A DNA stretch of 64,000 nucleotides, taken from Escherichia coli. GTDB taxonomy: Bacteria; Pseudomonadota; Gammaproteobacteria; Enterobacterales; Enterobacteriaceae. The first letter of the stretch is position 1. Each line of letters begins with the position of its first letter. The stretch is from assembly GCF_017348835.2 (NCBI RefSeq), contig NZ_CP072315.1; one strand, written 5' to 3'. Made by a program: the position numbers and the translations under genes. Under the pieces are notes generated by a model that did not search any database, was not told the DNA's origin, and saw only the letters and a program-made list of their open reading frames with translations. Positions 4,490 to 30,000 of the stretch are shown here, one piece after another.

Positions 4490-5565
4490 AGTACCTTCTT
4501 GATAATGGTTACAGCCCGATACTGGCCGAGGGTTCCCCCCATTTCTGTAACAACTATTCCCTTTTCACGAGCAAGCCCTACAAGCAAGGCAACGTCCGAG
4601 TCGTCAATAGAACGCACAAATACATGGTCCGGTACCCGACGTAATACAGCCCGGGTTGCTTCAGCAATACCGGGTTTTATACGATTGACGCTGTCCACTT
4701 TAAATTCATCGGCCAGGAACGCGATAACGTCGCGACTTGTCTGCCATAAGACCCGGGCTGACTCCGTATTCCAGCTCAGGGGAGCGAGGGATGACGGGGT
4801 TAACTTCTTACGGAAATGAGCGACGGTATCGACAAGCATCCGGCTGCATTCGAATTCACTGAGATGCTCGCAAACCATGCACCCGTGTAATCCTTCAGAG
4901 GACCACACTGACCGGGAGATCAGGCCTGACACCGGCGCACCCATGATGCCAAAAGGAATGAGCCAGTCATCATCACTGGCTGCAAGCCAGGAGCAGCCAC
5001 AGGGATCGGCCAGGACAACCAGTCGCGGCTGCTCAGGATAGCCCGGGCGATCTTTCAGTGCGCGTACAAGCTCTCCGGTAATTGCGCCTTTACCTGTCCA
5101 TCCGTCAACAAAGACAATACCGCTGGTACCATGCCGCTCTTCAATGACGTCGAGGGCTGCACCGTCAATTCCACGATCCCGGATAATGCTGATACCGTAA
5201 TGCCATGAGGTTTTCCCCATGTCACGCAGGGCCTGGTGCAGCATAACGCCGAGCGGCACGCCAGCCCTGACAAGACTGGCCAGTACAATGGGCTCATCAC
5301 CAAAGCGTTTGGCCAGAGCAATAGCGAGCTGTGTGACTTCTTTTGCAAGTCTCTCTGCGCCCCGATCCAGCGCCCGGTGAAACAAATCAAGATGCCATTG
5401 TGTTGGCGCTGGCTCCTGACTGAGCATGTCCGAATAATGTTTCTTCCCTGACTGAATCAGCTCTTCTTTTTGCTCAACCGGCGTCATCTCAATGACAACC
5501 GGCTTTAGCAGAAATTCCACGTCACCGGGCTGGTATGAGCCGGTAAATGTGTCATGTGGCTGCAT
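4486..5565 (-). CDS. Phosphoribosyltransferase-like protein (divergent)
   Basis: ATG at 5565 preceded by a GGAGAA ribosome-binding site and placed 1 nt after the HAD stop; degenerate PRTase-like motif IVFVDGWTGKGAITG. Confidence 0.55.
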   Translation of the reverse strand: MQPHDTFTGSYQPGDVEFLLKPVVIEMTPVEQKEELIQSGKKHYSDMLSQEPAPTQWHLDLFHRALDRGAERLAKEVTQLAIALAKRFGDEPIVLASLVRAGVPLGVMLHQALRDMGKTSWHYGISIIRDRGIDGAALDVIEERHGTSGIVFVDGWTGKGAITGELVRALKDRPGYPEQPRLVVLADPCGCSWLAASDDDWLIPFGIMGAPVSGLISRSVWSSEGLHGCMVCEHLSEFECSRMLVDTVAHFRKKLTPSSLAPLSWNTESARVLWQTSRDVIAFLADEFKVDSVNRIKPGIAEATRAVLRRVPDHVFVRSIDDSDVALLVGLAREKGIVVTEMGGTLGQYRAVTIIKKVL

Positions 5566-5566
5566 T

Positions 5567-6340
5567 TTAATTTTCTCCAAAAATTCGCTGTGAAATGGCA
5601 TCTGCAAACTGACTCTGACGCGGGATGCCAAACCAGCTGCACAGTTTCATAAAACGATGATCGCTCAGGCTGTCGCCCAGGCCAATTACGGGGAAGACTC
5701 CGCGTTCAGCCCGAAGTTTTTCAAGCAGCCATCTGACTGCCAGCCCTTTCTCAACCGGGGTGGGAAGCCAGGCCACGTTATTACTGTTGCGGTGGATGTA
5801 GAAGCCCTCGGTCGGAAACACCGTTTCTATCTCATCTGCAATGGCATTAAGCTCGTCAAGGCGGGTGCTGTCGCGGTGCTTCATCACCATATAAACCGCC
5901 GTTTCACCGTATTCGAAGTTCAGCCTTGCCCAGGCATTGATCCCTTTTGCGTCCATCATTTCAGTGATCAGACGCTGCATCGATGTCAGCTTTTCCTGGT
6001 AGGGAGCCAGCTGGCCAAGCATATGGGCCTTCCACTCCTCGTCGGGTTTGCCTTCAGGCGTGAGAATGACGGCCCCGTGCGTGGTGATTGCCCAGGAGTG
6101 GAAAGGGATCCGGACGCGGCTGATTTCTTCAGTTCCCCGGGCGGTAACAGGTATGAGTTCAGCCTGCTCCAGGAGCCAGTCCACCAACATGGACTGTTCT
6201 TCCGTCATAAAGCTTCGTGGATTCAGGGTGCGATCAACGGCACCGGTACGGAATGGCTCCAGGGCCAGCTCGTCCACCATTTTACGACGGGTCTGAAAGA
6301 GCGTGTCGTCAAGGTCGCTCAGAACAACGGGTTTATTCAT
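5567..6340 (-). CDS. HAD-superfamily hydrolase
   Basis: Starts MNKPVVLSDLDDTLF (HAD motif I DxDxT); ATG at 6340 overlaps the PRTase gene's stop by 8 nt; the longer track ORF 5567..6676 is an upstream extension. Confidence 0.7.
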   Translation of the reverse strand: MNKPVVLSDLDDTLFQTRRKMVDELALEPFRTGAVDRTLNPRSFMTEEQSMLVDWLLEQAELIPVTARGTEEISRVRIPFHSWAITTHGAVILTPEGKPDEEWKAHMLGQLAPYQEKLTSMQRLITEMMDAKGINAWARLNFEYGETAVYMVMKHRDSTRLDELNAIADEIETVFPTEGFYIHRNSNNVAWLPTPVEKGLAVRWLLEKLRAERGVFPVIGLGDSLSDHRFMKLCSWFGIPRQSQFADAISQRIFGEN

Positions 6341-20386: not shown

Positions 20387-21202
20387 ATGAGAGAGCCAAG
20401 ACCACGCCATACCTTGCAGGTCATTCGTGTACCTTCTCTGGAGGTTCAGGACCTGGGGCTGACCAGCTTTGATAGCTGGCTTGACGAGCACGGGTATGAC
20501 AAAACGAATGCCAGAAATAACCGTACCATCTGGGCGAGAGAAGGCGGATGGCATCTGAAACGTTGCAGAAATCTTGAAACTGGCACGGACGATTTCTGGT
20601 TTATCGCTTTCGATGGTAAAGGCGGGAAGATTTACCCGCTGAAAACCCAAAGAGACTACCGGGCTGCATATCGTAAGCTGGAAGCAGAAGGTTATGCGCC
20701 TGCGGTCATCGAGCAAATGACCACAGGCGCAGCATATAACCTGGCCTATCCACGTTCCATCCTAAAACAAGCTGAGACGGCCACCAGCGAGCCAATTCGG
20801 AAACCTGACGTAGATATCCAGGGTGAGCACTGCGAGCGCGTAGTGACGCAACGTAGTGGCGTGGCACAGGGTAAATTCAAAGCTCTGCTCATCGAGAATT
20901 TCGCAGGCCGTTGTGCGGTAACCGGTTGGGTTAATGGAGGTGTCCTGGATGCGGCACACATTGAACATGGAACCCGGTACAATCCGTCTAATGGCATCCT
21001 GATGACTCCAACAATGCATGCGCTGTTTGATGCCGATCTTATGGGCATAGATCCGGCCACCCTGACCGTTCATTTTAAGCCAGGCATTGAGGTGGGCGAG
21101 CTGTTTGAAGGCCGTAAAATCACACCGCTGGTGTACGATCTGGACTTAGAGCGGCTGGCCGTACGCTGGGCAGAATACCAGGGCCTTGCTCAGGACCAAT
21201 GA
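20387..21202 (+). CDS. HNH-family endonuclease
   Basis: 271-aa ORF with HNH-like C-terminal motif (CAVTGW ... LDAAHI ... NGILMTPTMHALFD). Confidence 0.65.
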   Translation: MREPRPRHTLQVIRVPSLEVQDLGLTSFDSWLDEHGYDKTNARNNRTIWAREGGWHLKRCRNLETGTDDFWFIAFDGKGGKIYPLKTQRDYRAAYRKLEAEGYAPAVIEQMTTGAAYNLAYPRSILKQAETATSEPIRKPDVDIQGEHCERVVTQRSGVAQGKFKALLIENFAGRCAVTGWVNGGVLDAAHIEHGTRYNPSNGILMTPTMHALFDADLMGIDPATLTVHFKPGIEVGELFEGRKITPLVYDLDLERLAVRWAEYQGLAQDQ

Positions 21203-21485: not shown

Positions 21486-21761
21486 GTGGCTTCTGTTTCT
21501 ATCAGCTGTCCCTCCTGTTCAGCTACTGACGGGGTGGTGCGTAACGGCAAAAGCACCGCCGGACATCAGCGCTATCTCTGCTCTCACTGCCGTAAAACAT
21601 GGCAACTGCAGTTCACTTACACCGCTTCTCAACCCGGTACGCACCAGAAAATCATTGATATGGCCATGAATGGCGTTGGATGCCGGGCAACCGCCCGCAT
21701 TATGGGCGTTGGCCTCAACACGATTTTCCGCCATTTAAAAAACTCAGGCCGCAGTCGGTAA
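21486..21761 (+). CDS. insA: IS1 InsA
   Basis: 91-aa [40 protein letters not shown]... Confidence 0.9.
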
Positions 21762-22183
21762 CCTCGCGCATACAGCCGGGCAGTGACGTCATCGTCTGCG
21801 CGGAAATGGACGAACAGTGGGGATACGTCGGGGCTAAATCGCGCCAGCGCTGGCTGTTTTACGCGTATGACAGGCTCCGGAAGACGGTTGTTGCGCACGT
21901 ATTCGGTGAACGCACTATGGCGACGCTGGGGCGTCTTATGAGCCTGCTGTCACCCTTTGACGTGGTGATATGGATGACGGATGGCTGGCCGCTGTATGAA
22001 TCCCGCCTGAAGGGAAAGCTGCACGTAATCAGCAAGCGATATACGCAGCGAATTGAGCGGCATAACCTGAATCTGAGGCAGCACCTGGCACGGCTGGGAC
22101 GGAAGTCGCTGTCGTTCTCAAAATCGGTGGAGCTGCATGACAAAGTCATCGGGCATTATCTGAACATAAAACACTATCAATAA
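21680..22183 (+). CDS. insB: IS1 InsB (expressed as an InsAB' frameshift fusion)
   Basis: 167-aa ORF overlapping insA in the -1 frame. Confidence 0.85.
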
Positions 22184-22226: not shown

Positions 22227-22892
22227 CTAACGACTACCACTTTTAAGTATGTATTGAGCCAGTTTTATATTCAGGCACACCATATTGCACTCTAGCTCTT
22301 TCATCATTCTTGAAGAACTCTTAATTAAGTATTCTTCAAGTGGGCCAGCATATGCCCCTGATGTCACGATCGTTAGTTGCGTAAGAGGATGAGTCAAACT
22401 CTCAATGCCCTTCAGGATGTCATTCTGGACAGCAGCAATATAAACAGGCGAAGCCGCAATCAAATATTCATCATTCGGGCTGGACTGCATTAACTGGCTT
22501 ATAGTTGCGCAACGGTTATGCTTACCTAGTGATTTTGTGATGGCTTTCCACCAGAGATCATGCCTGAATGGTACTTGATGAAATGTCGCCTCGTAAGAGG
22601 GCACCCGATCTCGACTATTTAAAAACCCCATCCCGGCAGAGATTATCCACAACTCCAGATTTCTGGTTGAGTTTAAAATTTCCTTTGCCGTAGACCAGTG
22701 ATTACCTGAATACAAGGACAATGCCGGTACCGCCTGATTACTTCTGGCGTCGTCTACAATGTTACTCCAGGCATATGCTGCGTCGTCCGGGGTTTGTTTT
22801 GGATCTATGTCCAATGTCGGCCAGACGTGGCCCTGATGATTCTTGCCCTTTGTACAGGAAGTGATTAAGTGTACTGAGCGTTCAGAGAACAT
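22227..22892 (-). CDS. Hypothetical protein
   Basis: 221-aa ORF, second gene of a two-gene minus-strand unit. Confidence 0.45.
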   Translation of the reverse strand: MFSERSVHLITSCTKGKNHQGHVWPTLDIDPKQTPDDAAYAWSNIVDDARSNQAVPALSLYSGNHWSTAKEILNSTRNLELWIISAGMGFLNSRDRVPSYEATFHQVPFRHDLWWKAITKSLGKHNRCATISQLMQSSPNDEYLIAASPVYIAAVQNDILKGIESLTHPLTQLTIVTSGAYAGPLEEYLIKSSSRMMKELECNMVCLNIKLAQYILKSGSR

Positions 22893-22949: not shown

Positions 22950-23330
22950 TTACAAATCAGCCCCTTTCACGGCATCATTTTGATTCTTCGCGTCTGCCCC
23001 CAGTAAGATGACCGGTTTTCTGCATGACAGTGTTATTCCTAACAAACGCAACACAAAACCACGCCAGCCAGAGCAAATTTTTTCATTTGCTGCGTAAAGC
23101 CTATTGTTTTCTCTTTTAAGCTTCGCCCACTCGTTACAGAGGGTAACATCATCAAGCGCTGTTATATGCTTCGCCTCACCTTCGACGATAACGGTATGGA
23201 TACCGTATGCTGTAAATCTCATACTATTTTCCAGAACCCAGTTGCGGTATTCGTCGAGTCCACCTTCGGAACCGGTAGCTCTGCGCCACATTTCAATTTG
23301 CTTGTGTGATGGGTCAAGTGTACTTGTCAT
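22950..23330 (-). CDS. Hypothetical protein
   Basis: 126-aa ORF, first gene of the unit, downstream of a palindrome-rich leader. Confidence 0.45.
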   Translation of the reverse strand: MTSTLDPSHKQIEMWRRATGSEGGLDEYRNWVLENSMRFTAYGIHTVIVEGEAKHITALDDVTLCNEWAKLKRENNRLYAANEKICSGWRGFVLRLLGITLSCRKPVILLGADAKNQNDAVKGADL

Positions 23331-23972
23331 TGAAGCCTCGTCTCAGCGATAACGCTTGAAATAGCCCGCTTTGGTCATCATGAAATTAGCCATCTGACTG
23401 GCGATTTGATTGTATCTTACTCATAGTGCCCTACCTATAGGTTAAAAAGGGGCATTTTCGCTTTATAGCGTGTTCAGCAGCATCAATCCTCCCAAGAAAG
23501 GCTGGCTTATTAAGCCGGTCCATCATTTTCTGTATATCTCTCATCAATTTTTATATCCGCCCTGGAGTGCACCGTTCAAGCACACCGATTAGGCAGATAG
23601 TCACTAGTTAACTCTTTACTAGTGACTAAATTCCATTGATATACGTGACAACGTCACGTCATGAAAGCTTATAAATGCCTATTTTTCATACAATGGGATT
23701 TAATTAGGAGTAAATCCCATAGGCTTACATAAGGATGACAATTAAAAGCGTTAAATATCAACCAGATAGAATGATTACCCCCAATTAATGGGCTCATCAC
23801 ATTATTTCACTGGCTGGGGTTATTGCTGGCATATCTGAAAGTGCTAATATGTTAGTCATTAGTAATTAGTAAAGCCTTTACTAAACGCGTTTCTACGTAA
23901 ATTCTATAGGTTTTATAGTGTCCTACCTTTGCTCAAATCAAAATGTTCTGACATACCAAAATGGAGTGTAAA

Positions 23973-24791
23973 ATGACTCAAAACCAGGGTTCTGAGCCAG
24001 TACCGGCGAGCCGGACAGGGCAGCTCATCAGCGCCCGGGATATGGCCATGCAGAAATTCGAAGAAGGGATGCGGTTAATCTCGGAAGCGTCGGAACTGTG
24101 CGGTCTCTCTCTCTTCACCAGCAGAATTATGCAGCCCAACGCATTTGGTCTTCCGTCGTCACTGGATCGCACCATCGAGGAGGGGCGTAAGGAAATTGAC
24201 CGTAAAACGTGGAAAAGGCTCTTTGAAGAAACAGGTATGGACCGGTACTGGAACCATAAGCAAAAAGAAGCCTTTAACGAATCCCTTCGTACGGATCCGC
24301 CCGTCGCTTCCCTGGAGATTGTTAAGGGAACATTACAGCATGCACTGGCTAACAGACGAGACACCCTTGCAGAAGGTTTCGTTGATGTTCTCAACAAGCT
24401 TGACCGAAGTTTCAAAAGCAATGCCAGGCAATATACAATGCCAAAAAAGCTTGTTCTTCGGGGGATTTTTCCTGGTGTGAACGTGCTGAGGTACAACGGT
24501 TTCTCGCAGGACAATCACTTTTGTTTACGCGACTTTGAGAATATTGTATGCATCTGTTCTGATACTCCAACACCTGCAACCGGCGGTGGGCTGAGTATGG
24601 TCGACAGGCTGACGGCCATGAGAAATACAGAATTCACAGGCGAGGTCAGTGATGAGAATGGCTGGCGGTGTCGCCTGTTTGAGAATGGAAACGTTCATAT
24701 TTGCATCGACAGTATCTCGCTTCTGAATGCTCTGAACGATCTTATCAGCATATATTTTGCAAACCAGCTTCCGGCCGCAGGAAAAAAATGA
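23973..24791 (+). CDS. Hypothetical protein
   Basis: ATG at 23973 has a GGAGTG ribosome-binding site (track ORF starts at 23961); stop overlaps the next gene's start (ATGA at 24788-24791). Confidence 0.5.
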   Translation: MTQNQGSEPVPASRTGQLISARDMAMQKFEEGMRLISEASELCGLSLFTSRIMQPNAFGLPSSLDRTIEEGRKEIDRKTWKRLFEETGMDRYWNHKQKEAFNESLRTDPPVASLEIVKGTLQHALANRRDTLAEGFVDVLNKLDRSFKSNARQYTMPKKLVLRGIFPGVNVLRYNGFSQDNHFCLRDFENIVCICSDTPTPATGGGLSMVDRLTAMRNTEFTGEVSDENGWRCRLFENGNVHICIDSISLLNALNDLISIYFANQLPAAGKK

Positions 24792-25993
24792 TGATTGAAA
24801 ATGATAAAGAAAAAAGCCTGAACGATGCTACCCCGCCAGAGGTGCAGAATGACATCCGCAGCGAATCCACTGAAAAATCAAAGGAAATGGGTCGTTCAAG
24901 GTACTCATCTATCGCGATGATCGATTACTTCAATGCAATCGAACGTCTGTGCAAAGAGAAAGAAATTAACCCGGAAAATATCGATCTGAGCTTCAAAGTT
25001 CACTGGCTCAGAAACGCTGTTGGCGGCTCGTTTGCAAGGTCACAGGAGATGTTCGCGGAGTACCAGAAGTATGTTAAAGAGGTTCCTGAAGAGGCCCGTT
25101 ACCTGGATATACCCGATGAGGTAAAGGTTGCACTCGGCGATATTATCTCGTACATCACCTGGCACTACCGTAGAAGCTATACCGCAATACAGAATGATAG
25201 TGTTAAAAAAGCTGAAGCACGTAGCATGCAGCTGGAGGAGGAGGTAACGCAGCTGTTACAGCGGCTTGAGCAAAGCGCTACCGATATGGATGAGCTGAAA
25301 CTTGAGAATCAGGCACTACAGGGTCGATTAGAGATCCGGGACAGTACCGTCAAGGAGTTAGAAACAAGGCTGAATGTTGCCGAAGCAGAACTCGAAACCT
25401 GCCATCACCAGTTAGATAGCACACGGCATGAATTGAGCCTCGCACAGCAGTCAAATGACTCACTCTCCCAGCAACTGGCTGAACGTAAAACAGAGATCGC
25501 TGGTCACCTTGAATATCAAAAAAAGCTGAACGAAGAGATCAACACGCAGCGTTCTGATAACGCCGGTCTTTCCAGACAATGCGACCAGTTAAGTCAGACT
25601 GTGTCAGATACAAAGGCAGAGAGGGACAGGTTTGAACAGGAATTGATTGCTGCACAGAACCTTTGTACTGAGCTGAAAAGTGCACTGTCCGGGAAAGAGG
25701 GTGACCTGGTGGCGGTGAATGCCGAGCTTACTGAACTCCATAAACTAAACGAGTCGCTGAGCGCCGACCTGAATAAAGTAACTTTGGTCAGCCAGGGCTA
25801 TGAAGCGGAAGTGGCTGAACAAAGCAATGAACTCAAAACGCTCCAGGCCAAAGTAATGAAGCTGGAAGCTACCCTGGAGGCGGAGAAAACAATCTCAGAA
25901 TCCCTAAAAGGCACCATTGATACATTAACTGGTGCAATGGCAGGGGGAGGTACTGGAAAGTCAAAACAGCCGCGTAGCAGAAAAACATCATGA
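24788..25993 (+). CDS. Coiled-coil protein (KfrA-like architecture suspected)
   Basis: About 401 aa from ATG 24788; about 150-aa N-terminal domain then a long heptad-rich Glu/Leu/Gln/Lys helical region. Confidence 0.5.
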   Translation: MMIENDKEKSLNDATPPEVQNDIRSESTEKSKEMGRSRYSSIAMIDYFNAIERLCKEKEINPENIDLSFKVHWLRNAVGGSFARSQEMFAEYQKYVKEVPEEARYLDIPDEVKVALGDIISYITWHYRRSYTAIQNDSVKKAEARSMQLEEEVTQLLQRLEQSATDMDELKLENQALQGRLEIRDSTVKELETRLNVAEAELETCHHQLDSTRHELSLAQQSNDSLSQQLAERKTEIAGHLEYQKKLNEEINTQRSDNAGLSRQCDQLSQTVSDTKAERDRFEQELIAAQNLCTELKSALSGKEGDLVAVNAELTELHKLNESLSADLNKVTLVSQGYEAEVAEQSNELKTLQAKVMKLEATLEAEKTISESLKGTIDTLTGAMAGGGTGKSKQPRSRKTS

Positions 25994-26056
25994 TAAATGA
26001 AGCCAGGTTGATACACTTCTCTGCATCCCCTGGCACATAAGAACTTCTGCGGACAT

Positions 26057-26260
26057 TCAGCCCGTCCGCAGGAGTTTTCGTCCTTCAGTCAACAAATGCA
26101 CTACCTTTTTTGAGTCTCCACTTTCCAGAGCAGAAAACACGTTACCGATTCTACCAACAGCTTGTATCTGAGTGATAACCCCAGTCTTGTAATCATCTAG
26201 GATCCCTGACAGGAAAGCGTTCAGTTTTGTCTGTTCGCTTAGCGAAAGCATGTAGGACAT
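26057..26260 (-). CDS. Hypothetical small protein
   Basis: 67-aa ORF immediately downstream of the 439-aa gene. Confidence 0.35.
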   Translation of the reverse strand: MSYMLSLSEQTKLNAFLSGILDDYKTGVITQIQAVGRIGNVFSALESGDSKKVVHLLTEGRKLLRTG

Positions 26261-26272
26261 TTTTTCTCCATT

Positions 26273-27592
26273 TTAAGCAGGTGTGTCAGTTGAAAGAGGT
26301 TTGCGTGATTCTGGAAAATGAGGCAGCACCATAGTTTCAGATGCTGTGGTCGCATCCCAGTGCCACCATCCATAAGGCCCATATTCACGGTTGTAATAAT
26401 CTTTTTTGAGTTGCTTTCGGGCCAGATAAGCAGGAGTGGCCATACCAAATACTTCCATCGGGAACGGCTTATCGCTTTTTGTGTCGAGCAGGTAGAAGTC
26501 AGGGAACACCTCACTAATACTCGCATCATAACGCATGGGCTTAACGTACTGCCGGTGCTCTGCATCCAGCTTTTCTGCAACAACCGCCTCATAGGAGGAG
26601 TCCAGAGGTATCCAGTTCTCGCTAACGTGCATCAGCACAATTTGATGAGCTCTTACAGAAGGGCCTCTGCCGGTTACCACAGCTGGTGACGTCAACGCAA
26701 AGACAACTATTTTCGCCCCGGATTTCCATGCTGCGTACTCCGATGAAAATCGTTTCTTTACGCTATCCCAATGGACTTCTGAATTGAAAAAAATCAGCGG
26801 TAGCCCCCCAAAATTCCGCAGGGGTAAAAATTTAAGTGGCTTCTCATGCTTTTCAGCATCGTAGCGAGGTAAAACTGACAGGAGCATGAGACGTTTATCA
26901 CTCATCGCCTGTGATGAAAGACGCTGAATTTGCGACTGAGCGACAGGTTGTTTCGGGTCAGGTACACCAATGAATAAATGGTCACCTATGCAGGCTCTGC
27001 CGGTACGAATTTGTTTAGCGGTTTCAAGCAGACGATACCGTACCAGTGAATCGTTACGTTTCCCTGCCATTTTCGGGTACCAGACATTCAGACCAGACTC
27101 TGTCCACAAAAGACTAAGCAAGCCCAGGAGGGTCATTGAGGCCTGACCTCCTTCTGGTCGCTGAACATGGGGCAGGGGAGGCACTTCTGATTTTTCAGGA
27201 GGATCTTTCTCTGTCATACCGATACCGAGCCTTACAGCCATATCACCTTCGGTTGTAATCCGGACCACACCACTCGCATATCCTTTCAGGCCGGTATGCC
27301 GGGCATCAAGGGAGAAGAATACACAGGAAGGATCATGCTCAATGCCCGTGTTAGCGGCTTTGACGAGAATAAAGGCATCACCGTTCGGTAAAGCACGAAC
27401 ATAAAGTCGCTTTTCTCCTTTTCCACGACATCCGCAGGTGATGACTGATTTTTGACCTGAGGTGTGGTGTGCCTTTTTAAGAGCCGACTGCCACCCTTTA
27501 GCAAACTCATCCTGCGTTTGAAAGTCAGGTGAATACCTTTTGACGTTTGGATCGTCGTCGTAAGCAATCATCACTGCGAATTTTTGGCTCAT
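26273..27592 (-). CDS. Hypothetical 439-aa protein with Cys/His-rich N-terminal region
   Basis: Long ORF co-oriented with and downstream of the C5-methyltransferase gene; CGCRGKG and HDPSC motifs; no recognised catalytic signature. Confidence 0.55.
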   Translation of the reverse strand: MSQKFAVMIAYDDDPNVKRYSPDFQTQDEFAKGWQSALKKAHHTSGQKSVITCGCRGKGEKRLYVRALPNGDAFILVKAANTGIEHDPSCVFFSLDARHTGLKGYASGVVRITTEGDMAVRLGIGMTEKDPPEKSEVPPLPHVQRPEGGQASMTLLGLLSLLWTESGLNVWYPKMAGKRNDSLVRYRLLETAKQIRTGRACIGDHLFIGVPDPKQPVAQSQIQRLSSQAMSDKRLMLLSVLPRYDAEKHEKPLKFLPLRNFGGLPLIFFNSEVHWDSVKKRFSSEYAAWKSGAKIVVFALTSPAVVTGRGPSVRAHQIVLMHVSENWIPLDSSYEAVVAEKLDAEHRQYVKPMRYDASISEVFPDFYLLDTKSDKPFPMEVFGMATPAYLARKQLKKDYYNREYGPYGWWHWDATTASETMVLPHFPESRKPLSTDTPA

Positions 27593-27616
27593 AGTAGTCT
27601 CCTAAACAGGAAGTTT

Positions 27617-27784
27617 AATATCCCAACCAGAGCAACACTTCCTGAGCGTCATACTGTTCCTTTACGCCCATGTCGCTAAAGAATTCTTCGAAATCTGTTT
27701 CGGGAACGCAATGCCTGGACAGTTCTTGTAATGCTCGTTCTTTAGATACCGTCTCACCTTCAGCTGATTCGAAATACGTCATGG
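27617..27784 (-). CDS. Hypothetical 55-aa acidic protein
   Basis: ATG at 27784; MTYFESAEGETVSKERALQELSRHCVPETDFEEFFSDMGVKEQYDAQEVLLWLGY; lies between the methyltransferase and the 439-aa gene; not in the ORF track (below 60 aa). Confidence 0.3.
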
Positions 27785-27842
27785 TTGACCTCTGACATTA
27801 TTACAACAATCTTAAGCATTTAAATTGATGAAGGAGCTCAGG

Positions 27843-29270
27843 TCAGCTGACTTCGTCGTAAAACTGCCGCAAGCGCTGGGAGGCTGCAAATTCAATTCGT
27901 GACTTCAGCAGTTTGGCGACGGCCGCAAAGACATCAACGACCACGGAGTTCCCAAACTGTCTGTAAGCCTGTGTATTGGACACAGGGATACGGAAAACAC
28001 TTTCCCCGGGTTTATCGAAGCCCATTAGCCTGCTGCATTCACGTGGCGTTAGCATGCGTGGCCGACGGTCCATGTTGTATGTGTTATGGAAATCAGTTTC
28101 TCCCAGTTCATGAGACCAGCCCCGATCAATAAGAATTTCAGATCCGTCTTTCATATAGCGGCTTGAGAGGGTTCTGGTGACACTATTAACATTGGAAGGA
28201 TCTACTAGTCCAAAACCAAAACCATTGCCTTTTGCCGCATGTTTCTTTGCATAGTTGTATAAGTACTCCCAGAGTTTAGGGGAGAGGATGTATTTACTAT
28301 CTACGCTCGGATCCAGTAAATCTGAGAGAGAAGGGCGCTTGTCCGGATAAAAGTCTTTAATGTCTCTCAGAGTAAAACCGTCTTTCAGACGTAGGTCGCG
28401 GCGAAAACCAATAAGGACGATACGTTCACGGTGCTGGGGTCGGAAATGACGGCCATCGATGACTTTAGGATCATCCGCGCCCGTGCTTTCGCTGTTTGCG
28501 ACGTCGTAGCCAAGCTCATCGAGCGTTTTCATGATGATGTTAAAGGTATTACCCTTATCGTGACTCTTCAGATTTTTTACGTTTTCCAGAACAAAAATTG
28601 CAGGTTGTTTTGCCCGGATGATCCTGGCCACATCAAAGAAGAGCGTACCCTGAGTGTCGCACTCGAAACCGTGTTTGCGACCCATAGAGTTCTTTTTACT
28701 GACACCGGCGATGCTGAATGGCTGGCATGGAAATCCCGCAAGAAGAACATCATGATCCGGGATAGAGGCATCGATAAATTTGTATGCCTCGTCATCAGTA
28801 ACCTCGGGCCGGTTGCTAAGAGTGATGTCACGGATGTCTGAATTGAAGCGGTGCTCGTTCTCATCGCAATACCAGTTCGCCCGGTAAGTACGGCTGGAAT
28901 AAGTATTCCATTCGCTCGTGAAAAGACATTTACCACCGATGGCATCAAATCCGCTTCGCAGTCCACCTATCCCTGCAAACAGATCGATAAAGCTAAAGTG
29001 CCTGTCCTCATAATCAGCAGGTCGTGAAGGTATTAAAGTCTGTAGATAGCGTCCATCTGCGATACTCAGCTCACAATGCTCAGGTATGCATGTAACCTGA
29101 CGTTTAAGGGATGCACGGGACCAATTACTGCCATTTTCATCATTTAATACCTGAGCCAGATATTTCAGGTCATAAATGGTCGAAGCTGTTAACAAAGTTT
29201 TGTGGATCAGAGATGGTGTTTTATCCACATCATTCAGGTCTGTCTCAAGATCATGAGTGTAACGTTTCAT
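27843..29270 (-). CDS. DNA (cytosine-5)-methyltransferase, Dcm-like
   Basis: C5-MTase motifs I ([10 protein letters not shown]), IV (GFPCQPFS), VI (ENV) and X (QFGNSV); likely ATG at 29270 (about 475 aa), alternative GTG at 29312. Confidence 0.85.
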
Positions 29271-29481
29271 CCAAACTCTCTCAGGAATAATATCTTTGAG
29301 ATAGATTAACACGCTTAATTTGGATTATTTTTTGGTTCAGGTTCTAAATTTATTGTGATTATTCTGCCTTTAAGTTGCAAAAAGATTGGTTTTAAGCCCG
29401 CCCATGAAATAATGACTTGTTAAAATACTGCCTGTAAATAGGCTTGTGGATACATGTCTGTACTCAACAAATCAAGGTGAA

Positions 29482-30000
29482 ATGATGTTTTTTTTAACAA
29501 AGTTACTTTTGCCCATCATGATTGTTGTATTCCCAGTGGCGTCCTGGGGGAACTCAACAACTTTTGAGGCAAAGGTGGTTAAGATTGTTGACGGTGACAC
29601 CATAACTGCGTTGGATGCTCAAAACACAACCATCAAAATACGGATGTATGGTATAGACGCTCCTGAATCTAAACAGGCTTTTGGCCAAAAAGCAAAACAG
29701 GCCTTAACCACAGCTATAGCAACTAAAATCGTTACCGTGATAGACCATGGTACGGATATCTATGGCCGTATGTTAGGTACCATCTGGTTAGATGGATATG
29801 ATATCAATGCCTCTATGGTGGACAGTGGATATGCGTGGGTTTATCGGTTCGAAGATAACGCCATTGTCCCTGGCTATATCAAATATGAATCCGCAGCACA
29901 AAAGGAGGCAAAAGGGTTATGGGCAGACACCAACCCTGTCCCACCATGGCAGTGGAGACAGGCAAACGAAAAGCCCAGAAAGGTGAAAGAGAAGAAATAA
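29482..30000 (+). CDS. Secreted thermonuclease (staphylococcal nuclease-like) protein
   Basis: ATG at 29482 after an AAGGTGA ribosome-binding site; N-terminal signal-like helix; SNase-like motifs (GDTIT, IRMYGIDAPE, DxYGR, GLW). Confidence 0.7.
   Translation: MMFFLTKLLLPIMIVVFPVASWGNSTTFEAKVVKIVDGDTITALDAQNTTIKIRMYGIDAPESKQAFGQKAKQALTTAIATKIVTVIDHGTDIYGRMLGTIWLDGYDINASMVDSGYAWVYRFEDNAIVPGYIKYESAAQKEAKGLWADTNPVPPWQWRQANEKPRKVKEKK

What the first reader, a model, noticed from the sequence alone, without database searches (positions are those of the whole stretch)
23973..25993. Translationally coupled pair: 272-aa protein plus 401-aa coiled-coil protein
The stop and start overlap (ATGA at 24788-24791), implying stoichiometric co-expression. 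The second protein has a globular N-terminus and about 250 residues of heptad-rich coiled coil, reminiscent of KfrA-type plasmid proteins or SMC-like scaffolds. The first protein has no recognisable fold.
Basis: inference. Interest (0 to 1): 0.5.

Follow-up and report, generated by a model that had tools for sequence, protein, structure and literature searches.

The report
IncHI plasmid DUF4942 plus KfrA-like operon
This is a real, conserved two-gene operon of the IncHI plasmid backbone: a protein of the plasmid- and phage-borne DUF4942 family followed by a KfrA-like protein with a helical head and a long coiled coil, preceded by a conserved repeat-built control region; its function has not been tested and it is probably an accessory plasmid-survival module.

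Summary
ORF A runs 23973-24791 (272 aa), ORF B runs 24788-25993 (401 aa), and they share an ATGA overlap. B has a conserved helical head, about 250 proline-free heptad residues and a lysine-rich tail. The window is IncHI2 backbone, and the pair occurs in about 1,400 sequenced plasmids.

- **A** is not unrecognisable. It is Pfam DUF4942 (92.9 bits), but a confident model has no solved structural relative. DUF4942 also forms the N-terminal module of phage N6-adenine-type methyltransferases. Standalone copies sit in the leading regions of IncL/M and IncK/Z plasmids.
- **B** is KfrA-type in architecture. Pfam KfrA_N does not hit it. A profile-profile alignment to KfrA heads is only suggestive (P=0.008; 0 of 240 shuffles reach its score). 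It has no ATPase, so it is not SMC.
- **A** is not KfrB or KfrC, and no partition genes lie nearby.

Two things are new here. First, two clusters of 7-bp TAGTHAN repeats upstream of A are conserved although synonymous sites are saturated, and they are found only in loci that carry B. They are a likely operator. Second, R27 and pHCM1 carry a nonsense codon in A while B is intact, so the pair is not an obligate complex.

Verdict: a new variant of a known kind, of moderate interest.

The parts
23598..23629 (.). Distal heptamer cluster: TAGTCAC-TAGTTAA-ctc-TTTACTA-GTGACTA, two direct and two inverted 7-bp TAGTHAN units. Candidate operator.
   Evidence: Conserved in the alignment of 5 divergent loci. 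The tandem-heptamer pattern occurs only upstream of the DUF4942 gene in IncHI-type loci.
23645..23657 (.). Palindrome GTGAC-N3-GTCAC, invariant in all 5 aligned loci.
   Evidence: It is a single occurrence in the 64-kb window.
23693..23730 (.). Palindrome ATGGGATTTA-N8-TAAATCCCAT followed by a third GATTTAC-like copy. It could be a protein-binding site or a hairpin.
   Evidence: It is unique in the window. The arms are conserved and the loop varies between loci.
23853..23884 (.). Proximal heptamer cluster: TAGTCAT-TAGTAAT-TAGTAAA-gcc-TTTACTA, three direct 7-bp units and one inverted unit. It includes the perfect palindrome TAGTAAAG-C-CTTTACTA, 90-120 nt upstream of the A start. Candidate autoregulatory operator.
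   Evidence: It is conserved together with the adjacent block CTACGTrAATTCTAT.
23973..24791 (+). ORF A, 272 aa, a standalone DUF4942 protein. The ribosome-binding site GGAG is at 23963-23966.
   Evidence: Pfam PF13708, 2.7e-26, 92.9 bits against a cut-off of 25. phrog_38825, 3.8e-100. AlphaFold2 model with pLDDT 88 and pTM 0.83. No PDB relative.
24788..24791 (+). ATGA stop/start overlap between A and B. The AGGA ribosome-binding site for B is at 24779-24782, inside A.
24788..25993 (+). ORF B, 401 aa, a KfrA-type head-plus-coiled-coil protein found only in IncHI-like backbones.
24899..25192 (+). B head domain (residues about 38-135). It is all-helical and the most conserved part of B, with the motif VHWLRNAVGGSFARSQEMF. 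Putative helix-turn-helix DNA-binding domain.
   Evidence: Alignments A1 and A3. AlphaFold2 predicts helices only, with pLDDT 70. hhalign against KfrA_N heads gives P=0.0083.
25193..25939 (+). B coiled-coil rod (residues about 136-384). It is proline-free, follows a heptad pattern with a weaker central stretch, and diverges quickly with indels between homologues.
25940..25990 (+). B C-terminal Gly-rich linker plus Lys/Arg-rich tail (AGGGTGKSKQPRSRKTS). It contains a chance P-loop pattern that is not conserved in homologues.
26047..26071 (.). G+C-rich hairpin (9 bp, 6 GC pairs) 54 nt after the B stop, at the convergent junction with ORF 26057-26260 on the - strand. Possible bidirectional terminator.
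   Evidence: where the scan scored it on the - strand. On the + strand it is followed by GAGTTTTC.

Best explanation
The locus is an accessory, non-essential operon of the IncHI plasmid backbone. It sits among typical establishment and stealth genes: H-NS, a Dcm methylase, DUF1173, a staphylococcal-type nuclease (SNase) and HNH proteins.

B most likely works like KfrA. A dimeric protein would use its N-terminal helical head to bind the iterated 7-bp TAGTHAN units upstream of the operon, repress its own promoter, and use its long parallel coiled coil to oligomerise on DNA. This would act as an auxiliary plasmid-maintenance or positioning factor. None of this is tested; it is inferred from architecture and from the co-occurrence of the repeats with B.

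A is a standalone copy of DUF4942. The same domain is fused in phages to a gamma-type N6-adenine methyltransferase core that has no other target-recognition domain. As a single gene it sits next to oriT in the leading regions of IncL/M and IncK/Z plasmids. A therefore most likely acts as a DNA-targeting or DNA-associated module during plasmid establishment in a new host. It cannot methylate DNA itself, because it has no SAM-binding domain.

In IncHI plasmids A is co-expressed with B, and the two may cooperate on DNA, but they are separable. R27 and pHCM1 keep B while A is truncated.
For: - **Identity and spread.** The region is 100% identical to IncHI2 plasmids; 1,175 records match by megablast and 1,429 by the B head.
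- **Conservation of the pair.** It persists down to 29-45% identity of B in IncHI1-like, Photorhabdus and Enterobacter plasmids.
- **B architecture.** B has a conserved helical head, a coil with a non-canonical stretch and a basic tail, and the same kind of tail is seen in 11 KfrA homologues. KfrA-type proteins are defined by this architecture, autoregulate through iterated operators that overlap their promoter, and play an accessory role in maintenance (PMC7783346, PMC7821693).
- **Remote similarity to KfrA.** hhalign aligns the whole KfrA helix-turn-helix core over 67 columns, P=0.0083, and 0 of 240 shuffles reach that score.
- **Candidate operator.** 8 of the 37 TAGTHA sites in the 64-kb window lie in two phased clusters upstream of A. 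They are conserved although synonymous sites are saturated. They are present in every B-carrying locus checked and absent from DUF4942 loci that lack B.
- **A is DUF4942.** 583 cluster representatives match, in two architectures. The fusions carry motifs FxTP, ExxAGxG and NPPF, and one sits in a phage-like contig.
- **Leading-region placement of standalone DUF4942.** It lies beside ardA, psiAB, ssb, klcA and the mobC-oriT-relaxase region.
- **Dispensability of A.** R27 and pHCM1 carry an in-frame nonsense codon in A with B intact.
Against: - No experiment bears on either protein.
- Pfam KfrA_N does not detect B. The hhalign probability is only 4.8%, and unrelated helical controls reach scores of 14.5-15.8.
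- No consensus sigma-70 promoter was found between the repeats and the A start, so the claim that the operator overlaps a promoter is inference.
- Which protein binds the repeats is unknown. It could be A, B, H-NS/Hha or another regulator.
- The target-recognition role of DUF4942 is inferred only from domain arithmetic. Its invariant W80/D187/H242/N255 and the NGNxH motif could instead mark a catalytic or ligand-binding site.
- Whether this region is the leading region of IncHI plasmids was not determined.
Confidence: 0.45

Rival explanations
1. A and B are functionally independent neighbours that merely share a transcript. A would be a leading-region-type establishment or anti-defence factor. 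B would be a separate KfrA-like autoregulator and nucleoid-associated protein. No A-B complex would exist.
For: - DUF4942 occurs alone in thousands of plasmids and in plasmids related to IncHI that lack B.
- B persists with A truncated in R27 and pHCM1.
- The exact overlap is not conserved; spacing ranges from -4 to +20 nt.
Against: - In every locus examined, B lies immediately downstream of a DUF4942 gene or its remnant. B was never found elsewhere.
- Spacing stays at 20 nt or less although synonymous sites are saturated.
Confidence: 0.3
2. The pair is a defence or anti-defence effector. One option is an SMC-like, Lamassu- or Wadjet-type module. Another is an anti-restriction device in which A, a catalytically empty target-recognition module, shields or decoys restriction targets while B spreads it along the DNA.
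For: - PADLOC LmuB and JetC models and the SMC models touch B.
- The neighbourhood is rich in nucleic-acid-conflict genes: a DpdC-like protein, a Dcm methylase, DUF1173, SNase and HNH proteins.
- DUF4942 is fused to orphan methyltransferases in phages and sits among ardA, klcA and psiB in leading regions.
Against: - The LmuB, JetC and SMC matches cover only coiled-coil segments and lie far below cut-offs, for example 43.9 bits against 567.
- B has no ATPase head.
- A has no PADLOC hit.
- The occlusion or decoy mechanism is speculation.
Confidence: 0.15
3. The pair is a non-canonical partition or positioning system in which B is the centromere-binding adaptor and A an accessory factor.
For: [quoted passage not shown]
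- There are two clusters of iterated repeats about 255 bp apart that could act as a centromere-like site.
Against: - No ParA, ParM or TubZ-type NTPase gene lies within about 20 kb on either side.
- Two R27 genes are annotated parA and parB at R0020/R0019, elsewhere on that plasmid (PMC7366339).
- A is truncated in the stably inherited plasmids R27 and pHCM1.
Confidence: 0.1

Closest known systems
KfrA-type plasmid proteins (RK2, R751, RA3; Pfam KfrA_N PF11740 head plus coiled coil)
   Same: - Both are plasmid-encoded and of similar size, about 300-400 aa.
- Both have an N-terminal helical head followed by a long coiled coil with non-canonical stretches, and no ATPase.
- Both end in a short flexible basic tail.
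- B has iterated short repeats upstream of its operon, comparable to the RA3 operator made of five 9-nt repeats.
- A weak profile-profile alignment spans the whole helix-turn-helix core (PMC7783346, PMC7821693).
   Different: - Pfam KfrA_N does not detect B.
- B has a variable N-terminal extension of about 35 aa and about 50 extra conserved helical residues between the putative helix-turn-helix and the rod.
- B is the second gene, behind a DUF4942 gene, rather than the first gene of a kfrA-kfrB-kfrC operon.
- Neither KfrB or KfrC homologues nor an adjacent IncC/KorB partition operon are present.
- The B coil is rich in Glu, Gln and Leu rather than Ala.
DUF4942 (Pfam PF13708) proteins, standalone or fused to a class I SAM-dependent methyltransferase
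   Same: A matches the family model at 92.9 bits and keeps the family's invariant residues W80, D187, H242 and N255. Like many members, it is a standalone protein of about 270 aa on a conjugative plasmid.
   Different: - A lacks the C-terminal methyltransferase core (FxTP, ExxAGxG, NPPF) of the 450-520-aa members.
- In the loci examined, only the IncHI members are followed by the coiled-coil partner.
- The IncL/M and IncK/Z members lie next to oriT in the leading region. The position of the IncHI copy relative to oriT was not determined.
SMC, MukB, JetC and LmuB coiled-coil ATPases
   Same: They share a long alpha-helical coiled coil, which produces compositional matches.
   Different: B has no Walker A/B head, no hinge and no antiparallel fold-back architecture. 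Scores are 10- to 20-fold below cut-offs. The P-loop-like string AGGGTGKS lies in the non-conserved tail.

Membership tests
KfrA-type proteins | The N-terminal KfrA_N helix-turn-helix domain (Pfam PF11740) is detectable by the family HMM. | tested here: not met
   hmmscan of B residues 1-151, and of two full-length homologues, at E<=10 gave no KfrA_N hit. R751 KfrA, run as a positive control, scored 3.9e-27.
KfrA-type proteins | Remote homology of the head to KfrA_N in a profile-profile comparison. | tested here: inconclusive
   hhalign of A3 against A4 gave a score of 21.3, P=0.0083, probability 4.8%, over 67 columns. None of 240 column shuffles reached that score; the maximum was 19.6. Unrelated helical controls scored 14.5 and 15.8. 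The AFDB fold library was unavailable, and the PDB holds no informative match.
KfrA-type proteins | A globular alpha-helical head followed by a long alpha-helical coiled-coil tail, without an ATPase domain. The literature classifies KfrA proteins by secondary structure (PMC7783346). | tested here: met
   The head at residues 38-135 is conserved and predicted helical. Residues 136-384 are a proline-free heptad region. No NTPase family matches.
KfrA-type proteins | Sequence-specific binding to an iterated operator at its own promoter, with autorepression. | not testable with these tools
   Only a candidate site was found: two clusters of four 7-bp TAGTHAN units at 23598-23629 and 23853-23884, conserved and specific to B-carrying loci.
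KfrA-type proteins | An operon partnership with KfrB and/or KfrC, and a functional link to the IncC/KorB partition system. | tested here: not met
   The DUF4942 profile A2 against R751 KfrC gave probability 0.13%, and against KfrB 0.12%. No ParA or ParB genes are annotated within about 20 kb on either side.
DUF4942 (PF13708) | A score above the Pfam gathering threshold across the whole domain. | tested here: met
   92.9 bits against a cut-off of 25; residues 73-261 cover profile positions 2-187 of 190.
DUF4942 (PF13708) | The family's invariant residues are present. | tested here: met
   W80, D187, H242 and N255 are invariant, and R22, D76, P110, L143 and G239 are at least 90% conserved, across 84 members including A.
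DUF4942-methyltransferase fusions (orphan N6-adenine-type methyltransferases) | A C-terminal SAM-dependent methyltransferase core with motifs X, I and IV. | tested here: not met
   A ends at residue 272 directly after the DUF4942 domain. The fusions carry FxTP, ExxAGxG and NPPF in an additional 200 aa or so.
SMC, JetC and LmuB | An ABC-type ATPase head and a score above the curated cut-off. | tested here: not met
   TIGR02168 scored 43.9 bits against a cut-off of 567. The matches cover only B residues about 135-380.
Plasmid partition systems (ParABS, ParMRC, TubZRC) | An adjacent NTPase motor gene plus a centromere-binding protein. | tested here: not met
   There is no NTPase in the operon or its flanks.

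The most novel reading that the evidence does not exclude
DUF4942 is a DNA-targeting module with a fold not yet seen in the PDB, which mobile elements couple to interchangeable effectors. In phages the effector is a fused N6-adenine methyltransferase core. In IncHI plasmids it has been replaced by a separately encoded, translationally linked KfrA-like filament former. A would then direct B to coat or position incoming plasmid DNA at TAGTHAN arrays, or the reverse. This would be a new two-component establishment or anti-restriction-by-occlusion system.
Probability: 0.12. Interest if true: 0.7.

Novelty: new variant of a known kind. Interest (0 to 1): 0.4.

Why it matters
IncHI plasmids are major carriers of resistance genes such as mcr-1 in Salmonella, E. 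coli and Enterobacter, and about half of their backbone is uncharacterised.

- **A KfrA-type protein in IncHI.** I did not find one described for IncHI plasmids in the literature searched here. The published accounts place the class in broad-host-range IncP, IncU, IncW and PromA plasmids (PMC7783346). This locus suggests one, and the TAGTHAN arrays give a concrete binding site to test.
- **Reach of DUF4942.** The family occurs in at least 5,000 sequenced enterobacterial plasmids. In the two non-IncHI plasmids inspected (IncL/M and IncK/Z) it lies close to oriT in the leading region. It also forms the N-terminal half of phage orphan methyltransferases. It has no structural relative, and a full-text search found only 4 papers that mention it. 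Working out its role could explain a common step of plasmid establishment.
- **A natural experiment.** The nonsense allele of A in R27 and pHCM1 can be used to separate the functions of the two genes.

Tried and rejected
- **PDB sequence searches.** Searches with A, with the DUF4942 profile and with the B-head profile found nothing below E=0.1.
- **AFDB Foldseek.** The library was unavailable, so B could not be compared with KfrA models.
- **Genome-wide locus scan.** Contexts were sampled protein by protein instead.
- **Single-sequence comparisons with R751 KfrA.** BLASTP matched only coiled-coil segments and hhalign gave no significant alignment.
- **PADLOC and NCBIfam.** Hits to LmuB, JetC, SMC and Rad50 were rejected as coiled-coil composition.
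- **Rfam.** The only match was a sub-threshold hammerhead HH9 on the antisense strand inside A (22 bits against a gathering score of 52), judged to be chance.
- **Promoter scan.** No site was found upstream of A on the + strand at the scan's threshold.
- **Literature.** Searches for DUF4942, DUF1173, and IncHI2/R478 with coiled coil found no functional study of either gene. In R27, 'R0153 partition protein' lies next to the cytosine methylase R0154 in the published table. From gene order I take it to be the SNase homologue and not B, but the R-number mapping was not verified.
- **First shuffle script.** It timed out and was rerun successfully.
Full report
**1. Observation**

The two ORFs exist exactly as described. 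A runs 23973-24791 on the + strand and is 272 aa. B runs 24788-25993 on the + strand and is 401 aa. They overlap in ATGA at 24788-24791.

A GGAG lies 6 nt before the ATG at 23973, and an AGGA lies 5 nt before the B start. RefSeq calls the same CDS on identical plasmids.

Against homologues whose synonymous sites are saturated (pS 0.75-0.86), non-synonymous divergence is much lower: 0.20-0.28 for A, 0.23-0.32 for the B head and 0.38-0.51 for the B rod. Both are therefore real genes under selection.

The rod, residues about 136-384, has no proline. Its heptad scores are high, with a weaker stretch at 239-290. Database hits to B are coiled-coil composition only.

A 4-nt overlap is common in operons. 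It does not by itself show 1:1 stoichiometry.

**2. Where the locus is**

The region is 100% identical to IncHI2 plasmids of E. coli, Salmonella and Enterobacter; 1,175 plasmid records match. It lies in backbone between a hipA module and the ter operon.

Its neighbours in the window are:
- an HNH_2 protein at 20387-21202;
- a DpdC-like DUF6884 protein at 22227-22892;
- DUF1173 at 26273-27592;
- a Dcm methylase at 27843-29312;
- an SNase at 29446-30000.

In the window an IS1 has replaced about 9 kb that other IncHI2 plasmids carry there, including a helicase and H-NS.

**3. Protein B**

B has few relatives, all in IncHI-like backbones. These include IncHI1 R27 and pHCM1 (58% identity in the head), a Photorhabdus plasmid-like contig and an Enterobacter plasmid.

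Residues 38-135 are strongly conserved. The rod drifts and takes indels but keeps its length. The C-terminus is a Gly/Pro linker plus a Lys-rich tail.

R751 KfrA and ten further KfrA homologues that I retrieved end in the same kind of tail.

On homology to KfrA:
- Pfam KfrA_N does not hit B.
- A profile of ten B heads against a profile of eleven KfrA heads aligns the whole helix-turn-helix core. For example, LRNAVG-GSFARSQEMF pairs with VRKQLGSGSFTTISEAM. The score is 21.3, P=0.0083, probability 4.8%.
- None of 240 column shuffles reached that score; the maximum was 19.6.
- Unrelated helical profiles score 14.5-15.8.

I read this as suggestive, not proven.

By the criterion the KfrA literature itself uses, namely predicted structure, a DNA-binding head, a coiled-coil rod and no ATPase (PMC7783346, PMC7821693), B is KfrA-type.

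The names 'ATP/GTP-binding protein' and 'Smc' in some records most likely come from the string AGGGTGKS in the tail and from coiled-coil composition. That string fits the P-loop pattern but is not conserved in homologues.

**4. Protein A**

A is Pfam DUF4942 (92.9 bits). An exhaustive HMMER search found 583 cluster representatives in two architectures:
- standalone proteins of about 250-290 aa;
- proteins of about 450-520 aa with DUF4942 at the N-terminus and a class I methyltransferase core at the C-terminus.

The fusions carry FxTP, ExxAGxG and NPPF in the gamma order and have no other domain that could recognise DNA. One lies in a phage-like contig. This is the basis for inferring that DUF4942 is the DNA-targeting module.

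W80, D187, H242 and N255 are invariant in the family. They could mark an active or ligand-binding site, so an enzymatic role is not excluded.

tblastn finds the family in at least 5,000 plasmid records.
- In an IncL/M pOXA-48-like plasmid it lies among hha, an antirestriction gene and ssb, upstream of the relaxase.
- In an IncK2/Z plasmid it lies between ardA/psiAB and mobC/relaxase.
- Both positions are in the leading region, and neither plasmid has a coiled-coil partner gene.

More distant large plasmids keep DUF4942 near DUF1173 and SNase, but without B.

A is not related to KfrB or KfrC.

**5. Are A and B a unit?**

Wherever B occurs, it lies within 20 nt downstream of a DUF4942 gene.

However, R27 and pHCM1, which are functional and stably inherited IncHI1 plasmids, carry an in-frame stop in A (…KTNA*QFVMPKK…) while B is intact. 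A related IncHI1-like element has the intact allele.

In an evenly spaced sample of 40 of the 282 IncHI1-type records, about 28 list no DUF4942 CDS. This is consistent with the pseudogene allele being widespread.

A is therefore dispensable for basic plasmid life, and B does not strictly need A.

**6. A conserved control region**

The 642-bp region upstream of A has 38% GC, against 51% for the window. It contains islands that are conserved across five loci even though synonymous sites are saturated. They are:
- (a) 23598-23629, TAGTCAC-TAGTTAA-ctc-TTTACTA-GTGACTA;
- (b) 23645-23657, GTGAC-N3-GTCAC;
- (c) 23693-23730, GGGATTTA-N8-TAAATCCC plus a third copy;
- (e) 23853-23884, TAGTCAT-TAGTAAT-TAGTAAA-gcc-TTTACTA, followed by a conserved block CTACGTrAATTCTAT.

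Eight of the 37 TAGTHA sites in the 64-kb window fall in clusters (a) and (e) with 7-bp phasing. This is the only such cluster in the window.

Tandem heptamers occur in all seven IncHI-type loci I hold, always at these two positions. They do not occur in DUF4942 loci that lack B.

By analogy with the RA3 KfrA operator, which is built of five 9-nt repeats over its own promoter (PMC7783346), I propose that B binds these arrays. This is inference. No consensus promoter was detected.

**7. Mechanism and rivals**

*Best reading (confidence 0.45).* This is an accessory IncHI operon. B would be a KfrA-like autoregulating protein that binds DNA and oligomerises on it. A would be a methyltransferase-less DUF4942 DNA-associated module of the kind plasmids deploy at establishment.

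*Rivals.*
- Independent neighbours sharing a transcript (0.30).
- A defence or anti-defence device (0.15).
- A non-canonical partition system (0.10).

The evidence for and against each rival is given in its own section.

**8. Novelty**

Both genes are annotated on many sequenced plasmids, but neither has been characterised.
- B extends the KfrA-type class to IncHI plasmids with a head that the family model cannot see and with a different operon partner.
- A is an ordinary member of a large family of unknown function.

I rate the finding a new variant of a known kind, with interest 0.4.

The wider lead, that DUF4942 is a common leading-region and phage-methyltransferase module with no known fold, is more interesting than the pair itself.

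Noticed in passing
window 23645-23657 and 23693-23730: Two further noncoding palindromes lie between the heptamer clusters: GTGAC-N3-GTCAC, and GGGATTTA-N8-TAAATCCC with a third GATTTAC copy. Both are conserved in five divergent IncHI-like loci and unique in the window. What binds them, or whether they form an RNA structure, is unknown.
   Followed up: partly
L026 (R27) about 25706-26620 on the - strand; L024 (pHCM1) 5036-5892: The DUF4942 gene of the IncHI1 prototypes R27 and pHCM1 carries an in-frame nonsense codon (…KTNA*QFVMPKK…), while the downstream coiled-coil gene is intact. Other IncHI1-like elements have the intact allele.
   Followed up: yes
window 22227-22892 (-) and 22950-23330 (-): The genes divergent from A are a DpdC-like DUF6884 protein (PADLOC DpdC, 4e-59) and a 126-aa protein. 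A same-sized gene at the same position on another plasmid is named 'tgtA5 cluster protein 2' by NCBI. No other named dpd gene was seen in the flanks examined. These could be a remnant of a 7-deazaguanine DNA-modification system, or a counter-measure against one.
   Followed up: no
window 26273-30000: DUF1173, a tiny ORF, a Dcm-type C5 methyltransferase and a divergent SNase travel together with DUF4942 across IncHI1, IncHI2 and Photorhabdus plasmids. More distant megaplasmids that lack B keep DUF1173 and SNase near DUF4942, but no Dcm was listed there. DUF1173 is reported as PD-(D/E)XK-related but lacking the catalytic signature, with a Cys/His motif at its N-terminus (PMC3045609). The block could be an unusual restriction-modification-like or methyl-directed module.
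   Followed up: partly
window about 21486-22183: An IS1 (insA/insB) sits where other IncHI2 plasmids carry about 9 kb of backbone, including an ATP-dependent helicase, a second HNH protein and the plasmid H-NS gene. This copy of the plasmid therefore appears to lack H-NS at this position.
   Followed up: partly
L020 285-2808 (Pseudomonas plasmid) and L019 1283-2867: Some genuine KfrA genes are themselves flanked by a DNA cytosine methyltransferase upstream, or overlap a downstream exonuclease or hypothetical gene by 4 nt. KfrA-type genes therefore also occur in operons with DNA-modification or nuclease genes, outside the classical kfrABC arrangement.
   Followed up: no
window 25940-25963 (B residues 385-392): The string AGGGTGKS fits the PROSITE P-loop pattern but lies in the non-conserved C-terminal tail. 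It probably explains the misleading name 'ATP/GTP-binding protein' in several database records.
   Followed up: yes
L027 82-1053 (IncL/M plasmid): In the pOXA-48-like plasmid a DGQHR-domain (DndB/DptG-like) protein lies just upstream of the leading-region DUF4942 gene. This is another DNA-modification-related neighbour.
   Followed up: no
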